Virus genome (UHGV): UHGV-1374414
DNA from: a virus
Reading direction: 5' to 3' (one strand)
DNA length: 45,123 bases
A program made the position numbers and the translations under genes. Positions 2,164 through 45,014 of the stretch are shown here, piece by piece (within the stretch, counting starts at the first letter, position 1; each line of letters starts with the position of its first letter). Under the pieces are notes generated by a model. It searched no databases, was not told the DNA's origin, and saw nothing but the letters and a program-made list of their open reading frames with translations.

Positions 2164-2493
2164 TTACTTAGAAGTTTTATTATTGCGTACCCAGGAGCGC
2201 ACTGTGCTCTGATTAATTCCGGTCAACTCGGCAATCATCGCCCATGATTTACCCTCGGCGCGCAAACGGATAACCTGCTTTTTGTATTCTTCCATTTCTT
2301 CATTGTGTTTTTGCAGCTTGCTTGCTGCGGTACCGTTGAGTAGTTCCAGCCTGGCGCGCAATTCTTTTTCGGTAAGCCGTAGTCGTTCGATTTCGAATAA
2401 CACCGCCCCCACGGCATCTGTATAAGCCCATGACCGGCTTGTCTCACTGCAAACAGTCTTCGTTAACATTTCGATTGCGTCGTTTACATTCAT
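2164..2493 (-). CDS. helix-turn-helix DNA-binding protein (possible regulator)
   Basis: 109-aa ORF; C-terminal GKSWAMIAELTGINQSTVRSWVRN is a classic HTH; N-terminal coiled-coil; SD GAGGGA upstream; directly upstream of primase gene. Confidence 0.7.
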   Translation of the reverse strand: MNVNDAIEMLTKTVCSETSRSWAYTDAVGAVLFEIERLRLTEKELRARLELLNGTAASKLQKHNEEMEEYKKQVIRLRAEGKSWAMIAELTGINQSTVRSWVRNNKTSK

Positions 2494-2507
2494 TGCTCTT
2501 CCCTCAG

Positions 2508-2524
2508 TTGGTTAATGACCAACG
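2508..2524. promoter_or_regulatory. palindromic operator-like site GTTGGT-N5-ACCAAC
   Basis: Perfect 6-bp inverted arms around taatg, in the leader of the minus-strand promoter. Confidence 0.4.
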
Positions 2525-2553: not shown

Positions 2554-2623
2554 ATCCTTTGGTTATTGAAACGGGCGCGCACGCGTGTAATAATAATTCC
2601 CGTCTCATTGTCTCTTATTGGTT

Positions 2624-2657
2624 AGCGCCGTCGCATTTTGCCTCGGCGCTTTTTTTT
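2624..2657 (+). terminator. intrinsic terminator with no upstream plus-strand gene (orphan)
   Basis: agcgccg-loop-cggcgct stem followed by T8 run. Confidence 0.6.
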
Positions 2658-2667
2658 AAATTAGTTG

Positions 2668-2697
2668 TTGACACCCATCCTGCAACCAATCTATCAT
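2668..2697 (+). promoter_or_regulatory. strong sigma70-like early promoter (TTGACA-18-TATCAT)
   Basis: Consensus -35 TTGACA at 2668-2673, -10 TATCAT at 2692-2697; spacer contains GCAACCAAT motif; about 190-nt leader to first plus gene. Confidence 0.6.
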
Positions 2698-2892
2698 TCA
2701 CTCCGTCGACAGGATGCAGGACGCAAACTGGAGAGGGGCAACGCAGGGGCCGGATCGAAGTGTCAGGATTCCCAACCGTGATTATATAACCAGGTCCACT
2801 ACCCGAACGGGAGAACGCGTAACCTGGCGCTATGTTAAGGCCACCGACGAAGTTAACTGCCGACACCTAAATTAACCAATCGGAGATATACC

Positions 2893-6498: not shown

Positions 6499-6669
6499 AT
6501 GCGCATTAAAGCCAGCGAAGTAAAAGTCGGAATGCAGGTATGGTCCAAATTGCTGGGCGAGTATTTCACCGTTGCCGAGATTCGCAACAATGGCGAAGAG
6601 ATTGCCCTGTCTGACGGCATCTTCTCCATGATCGGCAGCGCTGACGCCGTAGTGAGGATTAAGCAATGA
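6499..6669 (+). CDS. small hypothetical protein (56 aa), translationally coupled to DNA polymerase
   Basis: ATG 6499 with AGGA upstream; stop overlaps polymerase ATG (ATGA); below the ORF-track length cutoff. Confidence 0.4.
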   Translation: MRIKASEVKVGMQVWSKLLGEYFTVAEIRNNGEEIALSDGIFSMIGSADAVVRIKQ

Positions 6670-8957
6670 AAGACTTCGAACGCCTTTTTCTCGATACCGA
6701 GACATTTAGCGGGGTGGACCTGAAGAAAGTGGGCGCATACGCCTACGCAGAACACCCAACAACCGAGATTATGATTTGCACGTACGCCATAGACGAGGGC
6801 CGCGTGCAGACATGGGATTGCACCGAGTCCCCAACAATGCCGCGTGAACTGCGCAAGGCGCTCCGCCAGGTATCCCGCAAGAAAGCAAAAATAGTGATGG
6901 CTAACGGCCTCCTGTTTGACCGCCTGGTTATTCGCGAGAAGTGGGGCATTGACCTGCCGGTAGGCCAGATCGAGGATACCATGATTATGGCCTTTCGCCA
7001 CGCGCTGCCGGGTAGCCTCGATATGCAGTGCCAGGTGTTGGGCGTCGACGCAGAGCACGCGAAGGATAAGGCGGGCAAGGCGCTGATCAAACGATTCTGT
7101 AAGCCAACCCCCAAGACCTACAAAATCCGCCGCTACACGCGCGAGACGCACCCCGAGGAGTGGGCTAAATTCCTGCGCTATGCCGCACTGGATATTATAG
7201 CGATGAGGGAAGTCTATTGGCGCATACCGGACTGGGGTAACACGCCGAAGGAAGATGAAATCCTGCTTATTGACCAGTTGATCAACGACCGCGGCTTCTA
7301 TGTGGACGTTGACCTGGCGAACGCCGCGATCAAAGCGGTGCAGGCGCATAAGGAAGAATTGAAGGAAGAAGCATGGGAGCGCTTCGGCGGTAAGCTGACA
7401 GGCAATGACTTCCTGCCAGCGCTGCGCGACCTGGCGCCTGCGTTCACAATCCACAACGCGCAGAAATCCACGCTTAACGACCTGCTGGAAGACCCGGACT
7501 TCCCCGACGAGGGCAAAGTGCTTATCGAGATGCGCCTCGGTGCGTCATCAACGGCATCGACTAAGTACAATCCGCTCGTTAATGGCTTATCCGCAGATGG
7601 TCGCCGTCGTGGGTGTCTCCAGTATGGCGGGGCGAAACGCACGCTACGCTGGGCGGGCAAAGGCTTCCAGCCGCAAAACCTGGCGCGTGGCGAGTACAGC
7701 GACGACCACGAAGGGAAGATTAAACGCCGCGAGGGTGAAAGCGACGTCTCGTTTTGGGTCCGGTCGCACATGCTCACCAACGGCATCAACTCCCTGTTAC
7801 GCGGGACCGCACACTGGGCGTATGACATATCGAAGCTAACCGCCTCGACCGTTCGCGGGTGCATCATTCCGGCGAAGGGCAAGAAGTTTGTCGTCGCGGA
7901 CTACTCCAACGTGGAAGGGCGTGGCCTTGCCTGGATCGCGGGCGAGAAAACCGCGTTAATGGTGTTTAAGGCCGGACGCGATATCTATTGCGAGACTGCC
8001 GGTAAGATGTTCGGCCTTGACCCGGACTACATTAAATCTAACCGCAAGGACTTACGTCAGATCGGTAAGGCGTGCGAATTGGGGTTGGGCTATGGCGGCG
8101 GCGTTGCGGCGTTCTTGCAGTTCGCTAAAAACCTGGGCCTCGACCTTTACACTATGGCTGACGTCATGAAAGGCACGTTCCCGGATCACATTTTGGCGGC
8201 GGCGAAACGAGGCTATGAGTACGCCCGCATTAACGAAGCGAAGCGCCCGCCGAAGCCTGGTAAGAAAGACGAGCGCCCAACTTACATACTGCCGAAAAAC
8301 GTATGGCTGACGTGCGACGCGATCAAACGTATGTGGCGTGAGGCTCACCCGAAGACGGTAGCCTTTTGGGCCGAGCTTGAGGACGCGGTGTTGTGTGCAA
8401 TCCGCAATCCGGGCAAAGCATACTGGGCTGGCGCTAACGTTCGCCCGGACGGTAGGAAAGCGCTCAAGATTGTTCGCACGAAGGCGAAGCACGACCCAAC
8501 CTTTGACGAGGAGCGCGACGACCCGGACGCCGCGGGGTGGTGGTTGAAAATTGAGTTGCCGTCGGGGCGCATCATGAGCTACCCCGGCATCGCGTTGTCT
8601 GTCACGACCGAGATTGACGAAGACACCGGCAAGAAGCGCACCAGCACACGCATTAAATATCAGGGCGAGAATCAGACGACGCGCCAGTGGGGCTTCCAGT
8701 ATACCTACGGCGGCAAACTGACGGAGAACATCGTACAGGCGTTATGCCGTGATATTCTCGCCTGGTCAATGCCAGGCGTTGAAGCCGCGGGCTATGAAAT
8801 CGTTCTATCGGTGCATGATGAATTGATCACCGAAGTGCCGGACACCGACGACTACACGACCGATGAGCTTTGCGCGCTGATGTGCGACCTGCCTATTTGG
8901 GCGAAAGGCTTCCCTCTTGCCGCAGAAGGCGATTGCATGTATCGCTACCGCAAGTAG
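6666..8957 (+). CDS. family A DNA polymerase with 3'-5' proofreading exonuclease domain
   Basis: 763 aa; Exo motifs FLDTETFS and YAALD; polymerase motif A DYSNVEGRGLAW, motif B RQIGKACELGLGYGGG, motif C SVHDE. Confidence 0.9.
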   Translation: MKDFERLFLDTETFSGVDLKKVGAYAYAEHPTTEIMICTYAIDEGRVQTWDCTESPTMPRELRKALRQVSRKKAKIVMANGLLFDRLVIREKWGIDLPVGQIEDTMIMAFRHALPGSLDMQCQVLGVDAEHAKDKAGKALIKRFCKPTPKTYKIRRYTRETHPEEWAKFLRYAALDIIAMREVYWRIPDWGNTPKEDEILLIDQLINDRGFYVDVDLANAAIKAVQAHKEELKEEAWERFGGKLTGNDFLPALRDLAPAFTIHNAQKSTLNDLLEDPDFPDEGKVLIEMRLGASSTASTKYNPLVNGLSADGRRRGCLQYGGAKRTLRWAGKGFQPQNLARGEYSDDHEGKIKRREGESDVSFWVRSHMLTNGINSLLRGTAHWAYDISKLTASTVRGCIIPAKGKKFVVADYSNVEGRGLAWIAGEKTALMVFKAGRDIYCETAGKMFGLDPDYIKSNRKDLRQIGKACELGLGYGGGVAAFLQFAKNLGLDLYTMADVMKGTFPDHILAAAKRGYEYARINEAKRPPKPGKKDERPTYILPKNVWLTCDAIKRMWREAHPKTVAFWAELEDAVLCAIRNPGKAYWAGANVRPDGRKALKIVRTKAKHDPTFDEERDDPDAAGWWLKIELPSGRIMSYPGIALSVTTEIDEDTGKKRTSTRIKYQGENQTTRQWGFQYTYGGKLTENIVQALCRDILAWSMPGVEAAGYEIVLSVHDELITEVPDTDDYTTDELCALMCDLPIWAKGFPLAAEGDCMYRYRK

Positions 8958-9615: not shown

Positions 9616-9890
9616 CACCGGAAGGCAAGATTCAAAGTCACCTGATGAAACGGGTGAAAGAGGTCGGCGGATTCTGCCGCAAACTGGCATGGGAGGGGCG
9701 CGCAGGTGCGCCCGACCTGATTATTATCATCAACGGCAAAATAGTGTTCGTCGAAGTGAAGCGCCCCGGAGGAAAACCGAAGCCGCACCAGGTACGTGAA
9801 CATGAGCGAATGGCCCGCCGCGGTGCTGACGTTCGCGTTATCGACAACATATCCGACTGCGATTTATTGGTTGCTGAATTGGTCGCATAG
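9612..9890 (+). CDS. VRR-NUC domain nuclease
   Basis: ATG overlaps HNH stop (ATGA); GAPDLIIIINGKIVFVEVKRPGGKPKPHQ fits VRR-NUC PD-(D/E)XK core. Confidence 0.75.
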   Translation: MTPEGKIQSHLMKRVKEVGGFCRKLAWEGRAGAPDLIIIINGKIVFVEVKRPGGKPKPHQVREHERMARRGADVRVIDNISDCDLLVAELVA

Positions 9891-12807: not shown

Positions 12808-12812
12808 ATTGG

Positions 12813-12841
12813 TTGCATAATCATATTGGTTGCATTATATT
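12813..12841 (+). promoter_or_regulatory. sigma70-like promoter TTGCAT-17-TATATT built from two ATTGGTTGCAT direct repeats
   Basis: ATTGGTTGCAT at 12808-12818 and 12825-12835; -10 TATATT at 12836-12841; gene starts at 12889. Confidence 0.5.
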
Positions 12842-14024: not shown

Positions 14025-14491
14025 AATTACTGATTTGCGATTTGGATGGCGTTATTAACGGTTCAAGCGATGCGCGTGCCGACCTGGTTCCGGGTATAAA
14101 AACGAAATCAACCTTCTGGGCAAAGTGGCACAAAGCGCACGTACGCGAAGACCTGAACATGGATATGCTGCCGCTGTTGCGCATGTACAAAGAGCAAGGC
14201 TTCGAGATCGCGTATCTGACCAACCGGCAGCGAGAATGCTGGGACACGACCGCCGAACAACTGGAGGTCTTCCCGGTGGGCCGGTTGTTTATGCGCCATA
14301 TGCAGGACGACACCCCGCCGCCAGAGTTTAAGGCGTGCGCCGTGTTCAAAATGGTTTGCTATGCGGACGTATCGGAACTGGTCATCATTGAAGACTGTCC
14401 GAAGAACATCGCGGCAATTCGTCGGGCGTGTAGCGATCTGGTCCCGAAAATTTACGCAATAAATGTTGCAAAATTTACTTGCAACCAATAG
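14021..14491 (+). CDS. HAD-superfamily phosphatase (nucleotidase / polynucleotide 3'-phosphatase-like)
   Basis: 156 aa; HAD motif I LLICDLDGVI, motif II YLTNR, acidic motif IIEDCP. Confidence 0.55.
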   Translation: MKLLICDLDGVINGSSDARADLVPGIKTKSTFWAKWHKAHVREDLNMDMLPLLRMYKEQGFEIAYLTNRQRECWDTTAEQLEVFPVGRLFMRHMQDDTPPPEFKACAVFKMVCYADVSELVIIEDCPKNIAAIRRACSDLVPKIYAINVAKFTCNQ

Positions 14492-14508
14492 GTTGGTTGC
14501 ACTATAGT
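14479..14508 (+). promoter_or_regulatory. sigma70-like promoter TTGCAA-18-TATAGT overlapping inverted repeat TGCAACCAA-tagg-TTGGTTGCA
   Basis: 9-bp inverted arms at 14480-14488 and 14493-14501; -10 TATAGT at 14503-14508; downstream gene at 14554. Confidence 0.45.
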
Positions 14509-17517: not shown

Positions 17518-17538
17518 AGCTAAATCCTCGTAAATTGG

Positions 17539-17566
17539 TTGCATTCTTGATCGAGCGGTGTAATAC
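17539..17566 (+). promoter_or_regulatory. candidate promoter TTGCAT-16-TAATAC with ATTGGTTGCAT motif
   Basis: ATTGGTTGCAT at 17534-17544, about 55 nt upstream of lipoprotein gene. Confidence 0.35.
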
Positions 17567-22882: not shown

Positions 22883-23613
22883 TCTGTGATATCCCCCGGT
22901 AGGTCTTTATGACGTACCCATTTAACCACATTGTCGCGGAAAAATCCCGCCCGGAAGGGGATCACGCTCGACAGGCTGCCGTAGATATGGTGTAGTAATT
23001 GGTTGCCCGGAAGGTAGATTCCGGCATGGTTAGGCACTGGCGCGCTAATCTGCATGATGACCATCGCCCCCGGCGTATTCTCCTCACACTCCCGGAAGCC
23101 AGCGCCATACCAATTGTCCATATACAGGTTTTCGCCTGTCTCCCACCAGTTGTACGGTACACGGAAGTCTGGCAGGTTTACGCCCTGCTTTTTATGCCAA
23201 TCCATAACGAGGCCATAACAATCCGTAATTCCGAGAACAAATCGGCGACCTACCAGCGGCGGGTCTTCCGGGTCGATCTCGATAAAGTCGCCATATTCGT
23301 TAGTGATGGTCCAGACGACGCCGCTGCCGTTGCAGCCGTTAACGTCGCCCAATGACGGGGTTAACTCGCGCTGACCGGGGTGCGAGTGGACTACGCGCAC
23401 GACGTCGCCCATATCCTCGGCATCCATCCAGGCCATATCGCTAATTGTAAACGCGTCTTTGCGCGAGCGCGCGCCGGTGGGGTCTTCGAAGACGTTCAGG
23501 CACGGGATAAACACTTGTTTGCGGCCCACCATGACGACCAGCCCGCACGCTTCTTCCGGCAGACATGCCGCAACGTGTGCGGCGATATCGCGTTTAACCT
23601 TCTTCGTTAGCAT
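22873..23613 (-). CDS. tail assembly protein (lambda K-like; JAB/MPN + NlpC/P60 motifs)
   Basis: 246 aa; HSHPGQRELTPSLGD (JAMM-like) and C-terminal GITDCYGLVMDWH (NlpC/P60-like Cys). Confidence 0.65.
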   Translation of the reverse strand: MLTKKVKRDIAAHVAACLPEEACGLVVMVGRKQVFIPCLNVFEDPTGARSRKDAFTISDMAWMDAEDMGDVVRVVHSHPGQRELTPSLGDVNGCNGSGVVWTITNEYGDFIEIDPEDPPLVGRRFVLGITDCYGLVMDWHKKQGVNLPDFRVPYNWWETGENLYMDNWYGAGFRECEENTPGAMVIMQISAPVPNHAGIYLPGNQLLHHIYGSLSSVIPFRAGFFRDNVVKWVRHKDLPGDITEWQ

Positions 23614-27679: not shown

Positions 27680-27744
27680 TATGCAGTCCCCTTTTTTTTA
27701 TGCAGTTGCCGATTGACATTGTATCAGCGAATTTCAAACAAACC

Positions 27745-27918
27745 TTATGCAGTCTCAGACGAGGGGGACCATTGACCCCCGTCTAGTCTGAAAGACTGGG
27801 GTTTGTCCCGCCTGTCCCGATCGGCTAAAAACCGCGGCAGCACTGGCTGGGGCGGGGTGCTGTCCCGCTTTGTCCCGCCCATTGTTTGTCCCGCTTTCTG
27901 TCCCGCTTACTTTATGCA
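27745..27918. repeat. composite repeat element copy 1: GC-rich hairpins followed by array of TGTCCCGC iterons, bounded by TTATGCA motifs
   Basis: Hairpin cagacgaggggg/cccccgtctag 27756-27786; six TGTCCCG(C) direct repeats (27794, 27803, 27861, 27871, 27886, 27898); about 85 percent identical to 44690-44873. Confidence 0.8.
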
Positions 27919-27929
27919 CGAAATCCGAA

Positions 27930-28062
27930 TAGGTATGCACATTTACAGGGCGGGACAAAACGGGACGTCCCGCTTGTCCCGTTTTGAGTTTATGCAGTGG
28001 AAGTGAGTAGGTATGCAGTTTTGCAGGTGCGGGACAAAACGGGACGTCCCGCTTGTCCCGCT
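27930..28062. repeat. two tandem ~80-bp units each containing a 33-bp palindromic core GCGGGACAAAACGGGACGTCCCGCTTGTCCCG
   Basis: Cores at 27949-27981 and 28028-28060 with perfect 12-bp palindrome CGGGACGTCCCG; each preceded by GTATGCA. Confidence 0.8.
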
Positions 28063-28742
28063 TCACTGTGCGGGGTTCTGCTGCGCCATCTCATCAAGCG
28101 CAATTCGTTCCATTAGCTTGATATCTTTAAACGCGCGCTGCTCGTTTTCGATACCGTGCATCTTAAATAACCACTCCAGCACGCCGTAGTCGATGCCGTA
28201 TGCGCCACCAAATCCGGTGCGCCATTGCGTTGAGCAATCTGTGAAGACTGCGACTACCTTCGCGTTGTCGGGCCATAGCGCAACAGGCGGACAAACATCT
28301 TCGGGGGCCGCGCCCCATAAACTTGCGGCTAAATCTTCGGAGGGTGGCGGCGGGCCATAAAAGCGTCGCGCCGCCTCAATTAGTTTTTTTCACGCAATCC
28401 CATCAGTTCGAGATAGTACGACGTGTGGAACACACCGAACGCGCGTGGGTAGTTGACCACCAGGCGGCGGACGTTCTCCGCGTTGAATTCGTCTGGCAGA
28501 TTCCAGCCTTCTGCGACGTGCATGATGGCCTCGACCATAACGTTAAAGCCGTCCGGGTCATTGTCGTCATATTCCGACAGCTTGCGTTCAGTGTCCTGCA
28601 TGGTCTGCGAAAATTCGTCGATCGGGCGGTGGCGTACGGTAAACGTCATTTTGCCGGGTTCGGTCTCACCAGGGCGCGGGATCTCAATCGGCAGCTTAAA
28701 GGTTGGTTTAGGGTCAAGTGTGAAGAGTGGTGCTTTAGCCAT
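28063..28742 (-). CDS. tail assembly chaperone G-T fusion made by programmed -1 ribosomal frameshift
   Basis: G frame ends at A7 run (mRNA G AAA AAA AC UAA); -1 frame then stays open about 105 codons to TGA at 28063-28065. Confidence 0.6.
28380..28742 (-). CDS. tail assembly chaperone (lambda G-like)
   Basis: ATG 28742 with GGAGA SD (ORF-track start 28757 is TTG); 120 aa; between major tail and tape measure genes. Confidence 0.7.
   Translation of the reverse strand: MAKAPLFTLDPKPTFKLPIEIPRPGETEPGKMTFTVRHRPIDEFSQTMQDTERKLSEYDDNDPDGFNVMVEAIMHVAEGWNLPDEFNAENVRRLVVNYPRAFGVFHTSYYLELMGLREKN
28383..28389 (-). other. -1 frameshift slippery heptamer A_AAA_AAC
   Basis: Seven consecutive A on minus strand (plus-strand T7 at 28384-28390) two codons before G stop. 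Confidence 0.55.
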
Positions 28743-32829: not shown

Positions 32830-33534
32830 TTACTCGTCGTCGCCCATCTTAGCGATGATTTCACCCGCCTGTTTCGTAAGGTCAGTGATACCGAAGCTGT
32901 GGCCCATAGTGATTTTCGACTTCACATCTTCGACAACCTGCGTCGGTTTGCTAGGCGCGCCACCGGCTGGCGTGCCGGCCAGGACGGATGCAAAATCGGC
33001 GTTATTACGGAACTCTTTTTCAAGCTCTTCCATAGTCAGCGCGGACGGTTTGCCATCCTGCAAGACACGCACTTTCAAGCTGCCGTCTTCGCCGTCTTCC
33101 AGCGTCAGGCGGTCCATTACGTGGCGTTGCATGATGCCCGCATTCTTACCGAACAGCTTCGACGCCAGGTCTTTGGCAGCGCTGCCGATGGTTAGATCGT
33201 GGATCTGCTTGCGGTAGGCTTCGATTTTTCCCGATGTGTCTGCTTCGTGTTTCGCAAACTTATCCTTCCAGGACTTATCGATCGCTTCGAGGTCGCCATT
33301 TTTGCGCGCGGCGGCTTCCTCTTTCTCTTTCGCAAGGCGCTCAGCTTCGGCGCGGCGTTCGGCTTCTGCCTTCTTCTCGCTCACCAGCTTCGCGTTGTTG
33401 TCTTTCAGACCCTTGATTTCCGCCTGTACTTCTTCTGCGGTCATGAACGTTGATTTATACCCATCGCCATCGGCAACAAAAAGCGCCTTCATACCTTCCG
33501 GCAACGCGTCATATTCTGCTTTAGTAAGTTTCAT
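32830..33534 (-). CDS. capsid scaffolding protein
   Basis: ATG 33534 with GGGGGA SD; 234 aa, charged coiled-coil KAEAERRAEAERLAKEKEEAAARK; immediately upstream of capsid gene. Confidence 0.65.
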   Translation of the reverse strand: MKLTKAEYDALPEGMKALFVADGDGYKSTFMTAEEVQAEIKGLKDNNAKLVSEKKAEAERRAEAERLAKEKEEAAARKNGDLEAIDKSWKDKFAKHEADTSGKIEAYRKQIHDLTIGSAAKDLASKLFGKNAGIMQRHVMDRLTLEDGEDGSLKVRVLQDGKPSALTMEELEKEFRNNADFASVLAGTPAGGAPSKPTQVVEDVKSKITMGHSFGITDLTKQAGEIIAKMGDDE

Positions 33535-33624
33535 GCTATCCCCCTGGGATTGTGGCAGAGCAGGCCACCCGCTCGACTTCACGCTTCTAATATTATCAGC
33601 GATAAAAATAATCGCAAAATTCGC

Positions 33625-33653
33625 TTGCAATCCGCGTATTGGTTGCATATATT
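33625..33653 (+). promoter_or_regulatory. sigma70-like promoter TTGCAA-17-TATATT with tandem ATTGGTTGCA motifs
   Basis: Motif copies at 33638-33648 and 33651-33661; 25-nt stretch 33650-33674 identical to minus-strand 44510-44486. Confidence 0.5.
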
Positions 33654-33681
33654 GGTTGCACACCAACATGAGGATATGACA

Positions 33682-34194
33682 ATGATTAAAGTTAACTATG
33701 CCGATCTTAAAGCCGCTATGATGTGCGCCGCAACTAATGACGTGCGGTACTATCTGAATGGTGTATTTTTCGACGAGAAAGGATTCATCGTGGCCACCGA
33801 CGGTCATCGTTTGTTCTGCGGGTCCGCGGTTGTTCCCGGAGGTGAAAGTAAAATAGTAGCAATTAAAGGCCGCTTACCTACAAAATTCGAATACTGCAAC
33901 ATAGACGGCACATCCGCTGCGTTCTTTGATAGTAAAGACGTATTAATCGGTACCATACCCGTAGAGATCATAGACGGCAGATTCCCAGACTGGCGTCGTG
34001 TTACGTCTTTCGACAGCGCTAAAGTGGAGGCTATAGGGTTTGCCGGGGTATACCTGTCCGACGCCTGCAAAATTGCTAAATTGTTCGACCGTAAGTTTGA
34101 TAGCTTAAAACTGGAATTTCAGGGAGTAGACAAGGCGACACGTGTGCTGTTCAAAGGCGGTGCCTTCCTTGTTATCATGCCGATGCGTTTGTAG
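33682..34194 (+). CDS. truncated beta sliding clamp (DnaN)-like protein
   Basis: 170 aa; SD GAGGA 7 nt upstream; NDVRYYLNG, VATDGHRL, DGRFPDWRRV and C-terminal VIMPMRL match remembered E. coli DnaN domain II/III (QDVRYYLNG, ATDGHRLA, DGRFPDYRRV, VVMPMRL). Confidence 0.75.
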   Translation: MIKVNYADLKAAMMCAATNDVRYYLNGVFFDEKGFIVATDGHRLFCGSAVVPGGESKIVAIKGRLPTKFEYCNIDGTSAAFFDSKDVLIGTIPVEIIDGRFPDWRRVTSFDSAKVEAIGFAGVYLSDACKIAKLFDRKFDSLKLEFQGVDKATRVLFKGGAFLVIMPMRL

Positions 34195-34201
34195 CTAACA
34201 G

Positions 34202-34238
34202 AAAAAGGGGCCATCACGGCCCCCGAATTATTTTCTGC
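34202..34238. terminator. bidirectional intrinsic terminator
   Basis: A-run, ggggcc-atcac-ggcccc hairpin, then gaattatttt. Confidence 0.6.
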
Positions 34239-41029: not shown

Positions 41030-41059
41030 AGTGTAATACTCCTCTCGTTGATTGGTCGC

Positions 41060-41089
41060 AGTATGGCGTATATGTTGGTTGCAAGTCAA
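41060..41089 (-). promoter_or_regulatory. sigma70-like promoter TTGACT-18-CATACT (minus strand) with TTGCAACCAAC motif in spacer
   Basis: Located between terminator 41096-41128 and gene starting at 41029. Confidence 0.4.
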
Positions 41090-42567: not shown

Positions 42568-42600
42568 AAAAAGTCCCAGTAAGTTTTAGCTCACTGGGAC
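42568..42600 (-). terminator. intrinsic terminator upstream of lysis cassette
   Basis: Minus strand: 9-bp perfect stem agtcccagt/actgggact followed by tttttt. Confidence 0.55.
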
Positions 42601-42618
42601 TATATCACGCTTGCATAA

Positions 42619-43911: not shown

Positions 43912-44177
43912 TTGCTCAGTCTCCAGTGTTTGCCTACCCGCTCAATGGCGGGCTTTCGGCGTAATGTAATACGGATCCCCATTGGTTGCAAGGAAGTCCG
44001 CACCCTGAAATCGTGTTGTGCTGCGAACTGGTGCAAGTAGCGAGTCTGCGTTAACGGCTTTACGTCGTCGCGATAGCACCAGAATACCGATTCGCCCTCA
44101 ACCGCATTCTCAGCCCATATTCGTATGCAATGCAGGGGAATATGCCACGAAAGCTGTTTTGCGCGTCTGCGGCTCAT
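43908..44177 (-). CDS. hypothetical protein (possible diverged third paralog)
   Basis: 89 aa; C-terminus IERVGKHWRLSK resembles RVGRKATWRLRK of neighbour. Confidence 0.5.
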   Translation of the reverse strand: MSRRRAKQLSWHIPLHCIRIWAENAVEGESVFWCYRDDVKPLTQTRYLHQFAAQHDFRVRTSLQPMGIRITLRRKPAIERVGKHWRLSK

Positions 44178-44186
44178 TTTGGCCCC

Positions 44187-44477
44187 CTATTTCGCAAGCT
44201 GGGAGAATAGTTCGCGCTGGGCTTTAATCCGGGCGACGTTAGTCACTGCCGTTTCGCCGATACCGAAGCGATACGCCAGGCGTTCACGGGCAAATGCCAG
44301 CGCGTAAGCCCTGATAGCCGCGCGCAACGGCTCGGGGTCTTCCATGCCCGCGGTCGCATCCATGATCGCAAACCAGGTCGGAGCTACCAGGCGCTCCCAC
44401 GGTGCTCTGCCGTGGGTATATCTCACTTCGACCGGTTTTGCCACCGCCATTGTGTAATTCCAGATTAACGCTCTCAT
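44187..44477 (-). CDS. hypothetical protein (first gene of minus-strand operon after control region)
   Basis: 96 aa; SD GAGGA 9 nt upstream; leader identical to that of DnaN-like gene. Confidence 0.55.
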   Translation of the reverse strand: MRALIWNYTMAVAKPVEVRYTHGRAPWERLVAPTWFAIMDATAGMEDPEPLRAAIRAYALAFARERLAYRFGIGETAVTNVARIKAQRELFSQLAK

Positions 44478-44505
44478 TGTTCAGTCCTCATGTTGGTGTG
44501 CAACC

Positions 44506-44534
44506 AATATAGCAGGGTGCCAGGGCGGATGCAA
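44506..44534 (-). promoter_or_regulatory. sigma70-like promoter TTGCAT-17-TATATT (minus strand) from two ATATTGGTTGCA repeats
   Basis: Minus-strand -35 = plus 44529-44534, -10 = plus 44506-44511. Confidence 0.5.
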
Positions 44535-44611
44535 CCAATATTAATCACGCGCATGAAAAAGTTGATCGCTATCTGCTGTGACTGCAAACTGCGTTTTTCA
44601 CTCCGCATAAT

Positions 44612-44630
44612 GCAACCTGCATTGGTTGCC
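44612..44630. promoter_or_regulatory. inverted repeat GCAACC-tgcatt-GGTTGC (motif-derived operator-like site)
   Basis: Perfect 6-bp arms; overlaps ATTGGTTGCC at 44621-44630. Confidence 0.35.
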
Positions 44631-44689
44631 TAGTTCACCGGCGACCGCACTTCGCATCATGCTGCCGTGTATTTTGCAATCCCCGGATT

Positions 44690-44873
44690 TTATTCAGTCT
44701 CAGACGAGGGGGGCCACTGACCCCCGTCTAGTCTGAAAGACTGGGGTGCTGTCCCGCTGTCCCGCTCCTCTGGAAGCCGCGCCATCCGGGGCGGGACTGG
44801 GGTGCTGTCCCGCTTTGTCCCGCCCCTTGTTTGTCCCGCTTTTTGTCCCGCTTACTTTATGCAATAAAACTGC
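44690..44873. repeat. composite repeat element copy 2 (hairpins + TGTCCCGC iteron array), near primase gene 3' end
   Basis: About 85 percent identical to 27745-27918 in same orientation; five to six TGTCCCGC iterons; AT-rich tract follows. Confidence 0.8.
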
Positions 44874-44900
44874 ATAACTATTCACTATATCTACACTACA

Positions 44901-45002
44901 CGGCAACCAATGCGACCAGCTAAAAACACTCAATCCGGCAACCAATGCTCGCACAAATTAATCGTTTAGCGATATGGGGATTCCCATATCGGCAACCAAT
45001 GC
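44901..45002. repeat. three direct repeats of CGGCAACCAATGC plus a 20-bp palindrome
   Basis: Repeats at 44901-44913, 44936-44948, 44990-45002; palindrome GATATGGGGATTCCCATATC at 44971-44990. Confidence 0.7.
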
Positions 45003-45014
45003 GCGCAGAATTTA

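What the first reader, a model, noticed from the sequence alone, without database searches (positions are those of the whole stretch)
33650..33674. Identical 25-nt promoter/leader (TATTGGTTGCACACCAACATGAGGA) drives two unrelated genes on opposite strands
Plus-strand 33650-33674 upstream of the DnaN-like gene is identical to minus-strand 44510-44486 upstream of gene 44187-44477. Each includes the -10-overlapping motif, the transcript start region and the SD. This points to recent duplication of a promoter cassette or strong selection for co-regulation of the mini-clamp with the first gene of the minus-strand operon.
Basis: seen in the sequence. Interest (0 to 1): 0.55.

Follow-up and report, generated by a model that had tools for sequence, protein, structure and literature searches.

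The report
Conserved phage promoter-operator core, two copies
The two identical stretches are the cores of two promoters in an E. coli phage that belong to a genus-wide family built around one 9-base box, so the repeat is an old, conserved control element and not a recent duplication.

Summary
The window is a complete Dhillonvirus (HK578/SO-1-like coliphage) genome. It carries an exact repeat, 27 nt rather than 25, at 33648-33674 (+) and 44511-44485 (-). Each copy runs from a -10 hexamer (TATATT) through the predicted transcript start to the Shine-Dalgarno GAGGA, 7 nt before an ATG.

It is not a recent duplication. The first 21 nt (TATATTGGTTGCACACCAACA) sit at the same two loci in nearly every Dhillonvirus record searched (164 matching records, 319 places). 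Only the last 6 nt of identity are private to this genome.

Both copies belong to a family of about nine sigma-70-type promoters built on one box, ATTGGTTGC. This is the most over-represented 9-mer in the genome: 16 copies against 0.4 expected. It is invariant at orthologous sites across the genus and absent from the late structural operons.

In the two copies the box overlaps -10/+1 and forms a dyad, ATTGGT-N5-ACCAAC. A third dyad lies at the same position in the promoter and leader of gp47, the only recognisable helix-turn-helix protein.

Best reading: an operator over the transcript start co-regulates the DnaN-like moron, an early operon and the regulator gene. The binding protein is inferred, not shown. 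This is a new member of a known kind, of moderate interest.

The parts
33648..33674 (+). Copy A of the identical 27-mer: -10 TATATT (33648-33653), box ATTGGTTGC (33651-33659), predicted +1 near A33660, CA-rich leader, SD GAGGA (33670-33674)
44485..44511 (-). Copy B of the identical 27-mer: -10 TATATT (44511-44506), box (44508-44500), predicted +1 near A44499, SD GAGGA (44489-44485)
33625..33630 (+). -35 hexamer TTGCAA of promoter P_A, 17 nt before the -10
   Evidence: conserved as TTGCA(A/T/C)
33638..33646 (+). Second box ATTGGTTGC in the P_A spacer, abutting the -10
33651..33667 (+). Imperfect dyad ATTGGT-TGCAC-ACCAAC over -10/+1 of P_A (proposed operator O_A)
33682..34194 (+). DnaN-like gene (170 aa, beta-clamp domain II homologue): cargo of the moron slot
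34206..34224 (.). Bidirectional terminator hairpin that closes the moron and also the opposite-strand Rz/Rz1 operon
33590..33617 (-). Back-to-back divergent promoter for the scaffold/capsid/tail operon: TTGCGA-16-TGaTAATAT, no box in its core; the two P_A boxes lie about 59 and 72 bp upstream of its predicted start
   Evidence: read; conserved
44530..44540 (-). Box TATTGGTTGCA that supplies the -35 (TTGCAT, 44534-44529) of promoter P_B
44512..44528 (-). 17-nt spacer of P_B: fixed length, hypervariable sequence across the genus
44492..44508 (-). Dyad ATTGGT-TGCAC-ACCAAC over -10/+1 of P_B (proposed operator O_B)
44187..44477 (-). First gene of the P_B operon (96 aa, unknown function, phrog_9839)
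42572..42601 (-). Strong terminator that ends the P_B operon of small unknown genes, just before the holin gene
2507..2523 (-). Third dyad GTTGGT-CATTA-ACCAAC (O_47), just after a TTGACA-17-TAGTTT promoter (2553-2525) and abutting SD TGAGGG, 7 nt before the gp47 ATG
2167..2493 (-). gp47: 109-aa protein with a long helix and a C-terminal HTH (HTH_23, HTH_28, Sigma70_r4_2); candidate box and dyad binder; followed by the helicase-primase gene
2682..2690 (-). Box shared by two overlapping divergent promoters: -35 of GATTGGTTGCAG-16-TAATTT (-) and spacer of TTGACA-18-TATCAT (+, 2668-2697)
9866..9886 (+). Box at -35 plus the variant ATTGGTCGC in the spacer of TTGCTG-17-TATAGT (before the Lar-like and helicase genes)
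12808..12833 (+). Two boxes: one at -35, one in the spacer abutting -10 (TTGCAT-17-TATATT)
14481..14500 (.). Inverted box pair TGCAACCAAT-a-GGTTGGTTGCA inside TTGCAA-18-TATAGT
17534..17542 (+). Box at -35 of the promoter for the Cor-like lipoprotein gene (17598 +)
41051..41082 (+). Two box variants, reversed relative to the promoter TTGACT-18-CATACT (41089-41060, -), lying in its spacer and +1 region
43981..43989 (+). Reversed box inside the gp51 coding sequence; it supplies TTGCAA of an internal TTGCAA-17-TACATT promoter on the minus strand
44621..45000 (.). Region B (putative origin): four boxes of the form GCATTGGTTGCC (44621-44629 +; 44903-44911, 44938-44946, 44992-45000 -) flanking GCGGGACA iterons; no promoter is associated with them

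Best explanation
The two copies are the cores, from the -10 hexamer through the transcript start to the ribosome-binding site, of two host-RNA-polymerase (sigma-70-type) promoters in a Dhillonvirus. P_A drives a moron that sits on the opposite strand inside the late genes; here it carries a DnaN-like gene. P_B drives an operon of small genes next to the putative replication origin. Both belong to a genus-wide set of about nine promoters built around the box ATTGGTTGC. The box sits at -35, or in the spacer against the -10, or, in these two promoters, across -10/+1. There it pairs with a downstream ACCAAC to form a 17-bp dyad. The same dyad lies over the start of the promoter of gp47, the only recognisable helix-turn-helix protein. 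I infer that box and dyad are operators for a phage DNA-binding protein, most likely gp47. Bound over -10/+1, it would block RNA polymerase. The moron, the P_B operon and the regulator's own gene would then be shut off or autoregulated together. The unstructured CA-rich leader and the SD at 7 nt would support efficient translation. Shown: the repeat, the box family, its conservation, and the promoter-like conservation pattern. Inferred: transcript starts, protein binding, the identity of the binder, and the sign of regulation.
For: 1. The repeat is exact and non-random. The window is a Dhillonvirus collinear with SO-1.
2. Promoter signature at locus B: TATTGGTTGCA and TA(T/G)ATTGGTTGCACACCAAC are invariant, while the 17 nt between them keep their length but not their sequence, in 19 distinct sequences. 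P_A is TTGCAA-17-TATATT.
3. Box family: ATTGGTTGC occurs 16 times against 0.43 expected, with a maximum of 3 in 100 shuffles. It is the top 9-mer in the window and has 14-17 copies in nine other genomes. It is invariant at about 14 orthologous positions while the flanking bases vary.
4. Conserved -10 hexamers lie 16-18 nt downstream of boxes at five further loci.
5. Boxes also occur reversed, in spacers, and in region B without any promoter. They are therefore more than a -35 hexamer.
6. No conserved box lies in the structural operon (about 17.6-33.6 kb) or the terminase-to-Rz block (about 33.7-40.7 kb).
7. The dyad TTGGT-N5-ACCAA occurs exactly three times, each just after a -10 and just before TGAGG-7 nt-ATG.
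8. GGTTGCACACCAAC is kept at locus A whether the next gene is DnaN-like, Nmad5-like or an extra gene with a distant SD. It therefore goes with the promoter, not with the cargo.
9. gp47 has a C-terminal HTH and a predicted 59-residue helix followed by the HTH. Its last 60 residues are invariant across homologues with unrelated N-termini. More distant phages that carry it also have the box as their top 9-mer.
10. No other HTH was found in 30 proteins scanned.
Against: There are no experimental transcript starts or binding data, and no paper on Dhillonvirus promoters was found. Protein and site do not co-vary: a gp47 homologue at 45% identity with a changed recognition helix still sits in a genome with the same box. 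Most boxes are single and not dyadic, and paired boxes are 12, 13, 17, 23 or 31 bp apart, so no single binding geometry fits. In five promoters the box sits in exactly the -35 register, which would also fit an activator or a promoter-recognition element. The generic sigma-70 scan is not enriched over shuffles and misses P_B, because TTGCAT matches TTGACA at only 3 of 6 positions.
Confidence: 0.55

Rival explanations
1. Recent duplication or gene conversion of a promoter cassette: one copy was recently copied from the other.
For: The two copies are identical over 27 nt. The last 6 nt of that identity are unique to this genome: every relative read has CAACGAGGA at locus A, whereas the window has CATGAGGA as at locus B, and no phage record shares the window's form. 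Promoter modules do move on a longer time scale: Ioannina and LM40P1 carry a locus-A-like GTATTGGTTGCACTATATT module at the 17.5-kb promoter.
Against: The 21-nt core is present at both loci throughout the genus, including members at 81% identity. Sequences upstream of the -10 differ completely between the loci. The copies diverge independently in other genomes. The base after GAGGA at the window's locus A (T) matches neither the ancestral A nor locus B's C. That leader segment is in any case the variable part among relatives, so two small independent mutations suffice.
Confidence: 0.12
2. Plain strong sigma-70 promoters with no dedicated regulator: the box is only an extended -35 and an initial-transcribed sequence, kept for promoter strength and inherited from a common ancestral promoter.
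For: TTGCA of the box sits exactly 16-17 nt from good -10 hexamers in five promoters. The -10 elements are near consensus, and P_B has a partial TGn extension. The leaders are unstructured.
Against: The ATTGG part, which sigma-70 does not read, is as invariant as TTGC. Boxes occur reversed, in spacers, across -10/+1, and four times in region B without any -10. The ACCAAC arm downstream of +1 is invariant and recurs at gp47 with a different spacer sequence.
Confidence: 0.17
3. The box is bound by something other than gp47, either a host protein or the phage replication machinery (helicase-primase or an origin-binding factor). Its presence in promoters would then couple transcription to replication or to host physiology.
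For: The box is unchanged in phages whose gp47 homologue is only 45% identical, as expected for a constant partner. Four extended boxes (GCATTGGTTGCC) flank iterons directly after the helicase-primase gene, in the region SO-1 annotators marked as repeat region B.
Against: I could not name a host factor with this site, and this was not tested. The helicase-primase shows only an AAA_25 domain in Pfam. The third dyad sits at gp47's own promoter, the classic autoregulation layout.
Confidence: 0.13
4. The shared sequence acts at the RNA level, as a structured or protein-bound 5' leader common to both mRNAs.
For: About 15 nt of the shared 27-mer are predicted to be transcribed, and they include the SD. 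The TTGGU/ACCAA arms could pair.
Against: With the predicted starts the left arm is not transcribed. Even when it is included the hairpin is only about -3 kcal/mol, and the leaders fold less well than shuffled sequences (z from +1.2 to +1.6, MFE 0 for the DnaN-like leader). There is no Rfam match. The element is kept where the SD lies far downstream (L006).
Confidence: 0.03

Closest known systems
Morons of lambdoid phages (HK97/lambda type: promoter, gene and terminator inserted between late genes)
   Same: P_A, one gene and a terminator (34206-34224) sit on the opposite strand between Rz1 and the scaffold gene. The cargo differs among relatives: DnaN-like, Nmad5-like, or two genes. The SO-1 record already calls gp07 a possible moron.
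   Different: This is a virulent phage. The promoter is not cargo-specific: it is a fixed, genus-wide landing pad that shares its operator with an early operon.
Operators overlapping early promoters in lambda/P22-type circuits (OR/OL with Cro and cI), including autoregulation of the regulator gene
   Same: A repeated short site overlaps the -35, spacer, or -10/+1 of several promoters. A dyad lies at the promoter of the only HTH gene.
   Different: Most sites are single 9-mers and not 17-bp dyads. Spacing and orientation vary. There are about 16 sites, including an origin-like region. No homology to Cro or cI was found. Binding is untested.
Phage activators acting at -35 (T4 MotA box with AsiA; Mu Mor/C; lambda cII TTGC-N6-TTGC)
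   Same: In five promoters a conserved box replaces a weak -35 (TTGCAT, 3 of 6) in a fixed register, 16-17 nt from a good -10. gp47 is small, with a dimer-like long helix and a C-terminal HTH that scores against Sigma70_r4_2.
   Different: gp47 and the other scanned proteins gave no Pfam hit to such families. The TTGC copies are 13, 18 or 31 nt apart, not N6. In the two copies under study the box lies over -10/+1, a position that represses rather than activates.
Iteron-type replication origins whose initiator also regulates promoters (plasmid Rep proteins; P4 alpha with ori and crr)
   Same: Boxes and GCGGGACA iterons cluster directly after the helicase-primase gene. A related repeat block (region A) lies about 17 kb away.
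   Different: Origin function is unproven here. The promoter boxes end in TTGCA, whereas the origin boxes have the form GC-box-C.

Membership tests
Sigma-70-dependent (host RNA polymerase) promoter | -35-like and -10-like hexamers separated by 16-18 bp | tested here: met
   P_A is TTGCAA-17-TATATT. P_B is TTGCAT-17-TATATT, read; it falls below the scan's threshold because the -35 matches at only 3 of 6 positions.
Sigma-70-dependent (host RNA polymerase) promoter | Comparative signature: hexamers conserved, spacer length conserved, spacer sequence free | tested here: met
   Locus B in 19 distinct sequences: boxes invariant, and spacer columns down to 20-60% majority at a fixed 17 nt. The same pattern holds at five other box promoters.
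Sigma-70-dependent (host RNA polymerase) promoter | Transcript start 6-8 nt downstream of the -10 | not testable with these tools
   No 5'-end data are available for any Dhillonvirus.
Moron (promoter-gene-terminator insert in a late operon) | Own promoter and own terminator, transcribed independently of the flanking late genes | tested here: met
   P_A lies upstream, a bidirectional hairpin with a T-run lies at 34206-34224, and the gene is on the strand opposite to its neighbours.
Moron (promoter-gene-terminator insert in a late operon) | Cargo present, absent or different among close relatives | tested here: met
   DnaN-like in the window, SO-1, EP23 and TheodorHerzl. Nmad5-like in Pride, Ioannina, TH11 and SECphi18. 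An extra gene plus DnaN-like in L006.
Repressor-operator circuit | Repeated specific site overlapping core promoter elements | tested here: met
   The box occurs 16 times against 0.43 expected. It lies at -35, in the spacer, or over -10/+1 in about nine promoters.
Repressor-operator circuit | Dyad symmetry of the operator | tested here: inconclusive
   Three dyads TTGGT-N5-ACCAA lie over +1 and one inverted pair lies at 14481-14500. The other sites are single or direct repeats with variable spacing.
Repressor-operator circuit | A cognate DNA-binding protein that binds the site | not testable with these tools
   The candidate gp47 has an HTH. No co-variation with the site could be seen.
T4 MotA/AsiA-type middle promoters (sigma appropriation) | Homologues of MotA or AsiA encoded by the phage | tested here: not met
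   gp47 and the other proteins scanned gave no such Pfam hit. gp47 matches only generic HTH families, including Sigma70_r4_2.
Lambda cII-type activator site | TTGC-N6-TTGC direct repeat straddling the -35 | tested here: not met
   TTGC copies at the two loci are 13, 18 or 31 nt apart.
Structured RNA leader or known RNA family | A stable conserved structure or an Rfam match | tested here: not met
   No Rfam hit at gathering threshold. The leaders fold less well than shuffled sequences.

The most novel reading that the evidence does not exclude
ATTGGTTGC defines a phage-specific promoter class read through gp47. In this reading gp47, a small dimeric protein whose HTH resembles sigma-70 region 4, sits on the box in place of, or together with, sigma region 4. 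It would activate promoters where the box is at -35, block those where box and dyad cover -10/+1 (the two copies studied and its own gene), and mark the replication origin. One 109-aa protein would then time early shut-off, the switch towards the divergent scaffold promoter, and replication.
Probability: 0.1. Interest if true: 0.7.

Novelty: new member of a known kind. Interest (0 to 1): 0.35.

Why it matters
Dhillonviruses are common coliphages, present in the BASEL collection and used in defence-system and phage-engineering studies. I found no description of their promoters or regulatory sites. The box, the three dyads and the gp47 candidate give a compact and directly testable map of their early transcription units. 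They also define a fixed, regulated landing pad (P_A) into which nature has already swapped different cargo genes, which is useful for engineering. As biology it is an ordinary kind of phage control circuit, and the repeat itself signals nothing unusual.

Tried and rejected
1. Exact 25-mer scan of IMG/VR: only 3 contigs, all Dhillonvirus.
2. Loci around DnaN-like and gp51 homologues in IMG/VR: few Dhillonviruses. DnaN-like homologues at 51% identity in other about 42-kb phages have no box upstream.
3. Idea that P_A plus the DnaN-like gene was copied from a P_B-plus-DnaN unit in distant relatives: rejected. The first gene after region B in L043 and L045 is unrelated to the DnaN-like protein.
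4. Paired-box pattern scan of IMG/VR: it returned unrelated 27-nt coding tandem repeats that happen to contain the 9-mer. Dead end.
5. Co-variation test between the gp47 recognition helix and the box: the box is unchanged in L047 despite a diverged helix. Uninformative, and mildly against gp47.
6. Fold search with the gp47 model: only local generic HTH matches (LuxR/GerE, resolvase, DeoR), none with E <= 0.001.
7. Sigma-54, cII, MarA and CytR-like readings of the sequence were considered by eye and dropped, because the spacing or key bases do not fit. This was recall and inspection, not a formal test.
8. RNA structure and Rfam: negative.
9. Literature: no paper mentions the box or Dhillonvirus promoters.

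Full report
**1. The observation**

The 25-mer TATTGGTTGCACACCAACATGAGGA occurs exactly twice in the window, at 33650-33674 (+) and 44485-44509 (-). No further copy appears with up to 3 mismatches, and none appeared in 100 shuffles.

Reading both loci shows that the identity is 27 nt: TATATTGGTTGCACACCAACATGAGGA, at 33648-33674 and 44511-44485. In both copies GAGGA lies 7 nt before an ATG (33682 and 44477).

**2. What the window is**

The window is a complete Dhillonvirus genome (HK578/SO-1/EP23-like virulent coliphage). About 159 records in the phage collection match at 80-97% identity. The window is collinear with Sodalis phage SO-1 in reverse orientation.

Copy A lies in a 149-bp divergent region. 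On one side is the scaffold gene, whose likely start is ATG 33533 (-). On the other is a 170-aa gene on the opposite strand. This gene is homologous to domain II of the beta sliding clamp (PDB E about 1e-8 to 4e-8; weak Pfam DNA_pol3_beta_2). It ends at a bidirectional terminator, 34206-34224. The SO-1 record already calls it a possible moron.

Copy B lies at the end of SO-1's annotated "repeat region B", just after the helicase-primase gene. It is followed by small genes of unknown function that end at a strong terminator, 42601-42572 (-), before the holin gene.

**3. Both copies are promoter cores**

- **P_A** is TTGCAA (33625-33630), 17 nt, TATATT (33648-33653).
- **P_B** is TTGCAT (44534-44529), 17 nt, TATATT (44511-44506). 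It is often preceded by TGn.

I aligned 25 locus-B sequences (19 distinct) and 14 locus-A sequences (11 distinct) from ten complete genomes and IMG/VR loci. At locus B, TATTGGTTGCA and TA(T/G)ATTGGTTGCACACCAAC are invariant. The 17 nt between them keep their length but vary freely in sequence. This is the classic comparative signature of a -35/-10 pair.

A start about 7 nt after the -10 gives A33660 and A44499 and a leader of about 22 nt. Folded as RNA, these leaders are less structured than shuffled sequences (z from +1.2 to +1.6, MFE 0 for the DnaN-like leader). No Rfam family matches. The transcript starts are inferred, because no 5'-end data exist for this genus.

**4. Not a recent duplication**

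All ten genomes read carry TATATTGGTTGCACACCAACA at both loci, including Ioannina and LM40P1 at about 81% identity. A 31-nt query finds 319 places in 164 phage records, about two per Dhillonvirus record.

The copies also drift independently. TH11 and TH13 have TTGCGCACC, and LM40P1, LF50P3 and TheodorHerzl have CAACG, in each case at locus B only.

What is private to this genome is the last 6 nt. Locus A reads CAACGAGGA(A/C) in every relative read but CATGAGGAT here. No phage record shares this form. That leader segment is the variable part among relatives, so two small mutations are enough to explain it. A micro-conversion from locus B cannot be excluded.

**5. The two copies belong to a larger family**

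- **Abundance.** ATTGGTTGC occurs 16 times in the window against 0.43 expected, with a maximum of 3 in 100 shuffles. It is the most frequent 9-mer of the genome, with 14-17 copies in each of nine other genomes.
- **Conservation.** Mapping every copy from those genomes onto the window gives about 14 orthologous positions where the 9-mer is invariant and the neighbouring bases vary.
- **Register at -35.** At five loci the box supplies the -35, 16-17 nt before a conserved -10: 2691 (-), 9865 (+), 12807 (+), 17533 (+) and 44540 (-).
- **Register in the spacer.** Elsewhere it lies in the spacer against the -10 (12825, 14492, 33638). It is reversed inside promoters at 2668-2697 (+), 41089-41060 (-) and 43990 (-).
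- **Register over the start.** In the two copies studied it lies across -10/+1.
- **Sites with no promoter.** Four copies of the form GCATTGGTTGCC flank GCGGGACA iterons in region B, and no promoter is associated with them.
- **Absence from late genes.** No conserved box lies in the structural operon (about 17.6-33.6 kb) or in the terminase-to-Rz block (about 33.7-40.7 kb). The site at 22998 is private to the window and is probably chance.

The box is therefore more than a -35 hexamer. It behaves as a protein-binding site tied to the early and replication part of the genome.

**6. The dyad**

In the 27-mer the box and the downstream bases form ATTGGT-TGCAC-ACCAAC. The pattern TTGGT-N5-ACCAA occurs exactly three times in the window. 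The third copy, GTTGGT-CATTA-ACCAAC (2523-2507, -), lies directly after a TTGACA-17-TAGTTT promoter. It abuts TGAGGG, 7 nt before the ATG of gp47. The layout is the same as in the two copies, and it is conserved in all relatives while the promoter spacer varies.

At locus A, GGTTGCACACCAAC is kept whether the next gene is DnaN-like, Nmad5-like, or an extra gene whose SD lies 20 nt further on. It therefore belongs to the promoter and not to the cargo or its translation signal.

**7. Candidate binder**

gp47 (2493-2167, -; 109 aa) matches HTH_23, HTH_28 and Sigma70_r4_2 at its C-terminus. The model has mean pLDDT 85. It shows a 59-residue helix followed by the HTH. In the PDB there are only local matches to generic HTH domains.

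Homologues are confined to Dhillonvirus-like contigs, always just before the helicase-primase gene. Residues 47-106 are invariant even where the N-terminal 45 residues are replaced. The box is also the top 9-mer in those more distant phages. None of the 29 other proteins scanned has a recognisable DNA-binding domain.

Against gp47: a homologue at 45% identity with a changed recognition helix still coexists with the identical box. The link between protein and site therefore remains an inference. A host factor or the replication machinery remains possible.

**8. Proposed mechanism**

Host RNA polymerase reads P_A and P_B. A box- and dyad-binding protein, most likely gp47, occupies -10/+1 at P_A, P_B and its own promoter. 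This would shut these three units off together, or autoregulate them. Boxes at other promoters and at the putative origin would tie the rest of the early genes, and perhaps replication, to the same factor.

The two P_A boxes lie about 59 and 72 bp upstream of the predicted start of the back-to-back scaffold promoter. That promoter is TTGCGA-16-TGaTAATAT at 33617-33590 (-), read and conserved. A role in the early-to-late switch is therefore conceivable, but this is speculation.

- **Shown:** the repeat, the family, its conservation, and its registers.
- **Inferred:** transcript starts, binding, the binder, and the sign of regulation.

**9. Comparison with known systems**

- The locus-A unit meets the tested criteria of a moron: its own promoter, its own terminator, and variable cargo.
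- The box and dyad layout works like operators overlapping early promoters with an autoregulated regulator, as with lambda Cro. No homology to Cro or cI was found, most sites are not dyads, and binding is untested.
- Activators that act at -35 (MotA, Mor/C, cII) resemble the promoters with the box at -35. gp47 and the other proteins scanned gave no such Pfam hit, and the cII spacing is not met.

I found no paper that describes this box or Dhillonvirus promoters.

**10. Verdict**

- **Observation:** confirmed.
- **Interpretation:** partly supported. The promoter/leader and co-regulation readings hold; the recent-duplication reading does not.
- **Novelty:** a new member of a known kind, namely a lineage-specific promoter-operator family in a phage.
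- **Interest:** moderate. It is useful as a regulatory map and as an engineering landing pad, and it is not surprising in kind.

Noticed in passing
window 2566-2660 (+): Candidate small antisense RNA. A TTGAAA-17-(TG)TAATAAT promoter is followed by about 55 nt and a GCGCCG..CGGCGC hairpin with T8. It is antisense to the leader that runs from the box promoter at 2691 (-) towards gp47 and the helicase-primase gene. The hairpin is kept by compensatory changes in Ioannina and LM40P1 (TCCCCG..CGGGGA). No Rfam match.
   Followed up: partly
window 2730-2781: A 52-nt stretch in the long untranslated leader before the gp46-like ORF (ATG 2893) is 92-94% identical to unannotated DNA of about 50-kb phages of other genera (slyngel, swan01, ityhuna, tunus).
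   Followed up: no
window 44560-45010 (region B) and about 27680-28068 (region A): Origin-like block directly after the helicase-primase gene. It holds three direct GCATTGGTTGCC boxes and one inverted, an AT-rich stretch, 6-7 GCGGGACA iterons and a GC-rich hairpin. About 200 nt of it are 85% identical to a second non-coding block between the tail chaperone and tape-measure genes (SO-1 'region A'). The layout recalls P4 ori/crr.
   Followed up: partly
window 33534-34224 and relatives L006, L035, L036: The moron slot behind P_A is polymorphic in the genus. It holds a DnaN-like gene, an Nmad5-domain gene, or an extra gene of about 100 aa plus the DnaN-like gene. The promoter and operator stay fixed in all cases.
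   Followed up: yes
window 2167-2493 (-) and proteins P0014-P0024: The gp47 family keeps an invariant C-terminal 60 residues (LELLNGTAA...GINxSTVRSWVRN). The N-terminal 45 residues are swapped for unrelated sequences in related phages.
   Followed up: partly
window 33533 versus 33648 (-): The scaffold gene start annotated in SO-1 (equivalent to window 33648) would run through P_A and the divergent promoter. An ATG at 33533 with a GGGGGA ribosome-binding site, as used in the TheodorHerzl annotation, is more likely.
   Followed up: partly
window 6666-8957 (+): The DNA polymerase I gene is continuous here (763 aa). SO-1 carries a group I intron with an HNH endonuclease at the corresponding place, seen as a gap of about 0.9 kb in the alignment.
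   Followed up: no
L053, L059, L060, L090, L122 (IMG/VR contigs of 27-80 kb): Long arrays of 27-nt tandem repeats, apparently coding, that each contain ATTGGTTGC. They are unrelated to Dhillonvirus and are a chance source of hits for the box.
   Followed up: partly
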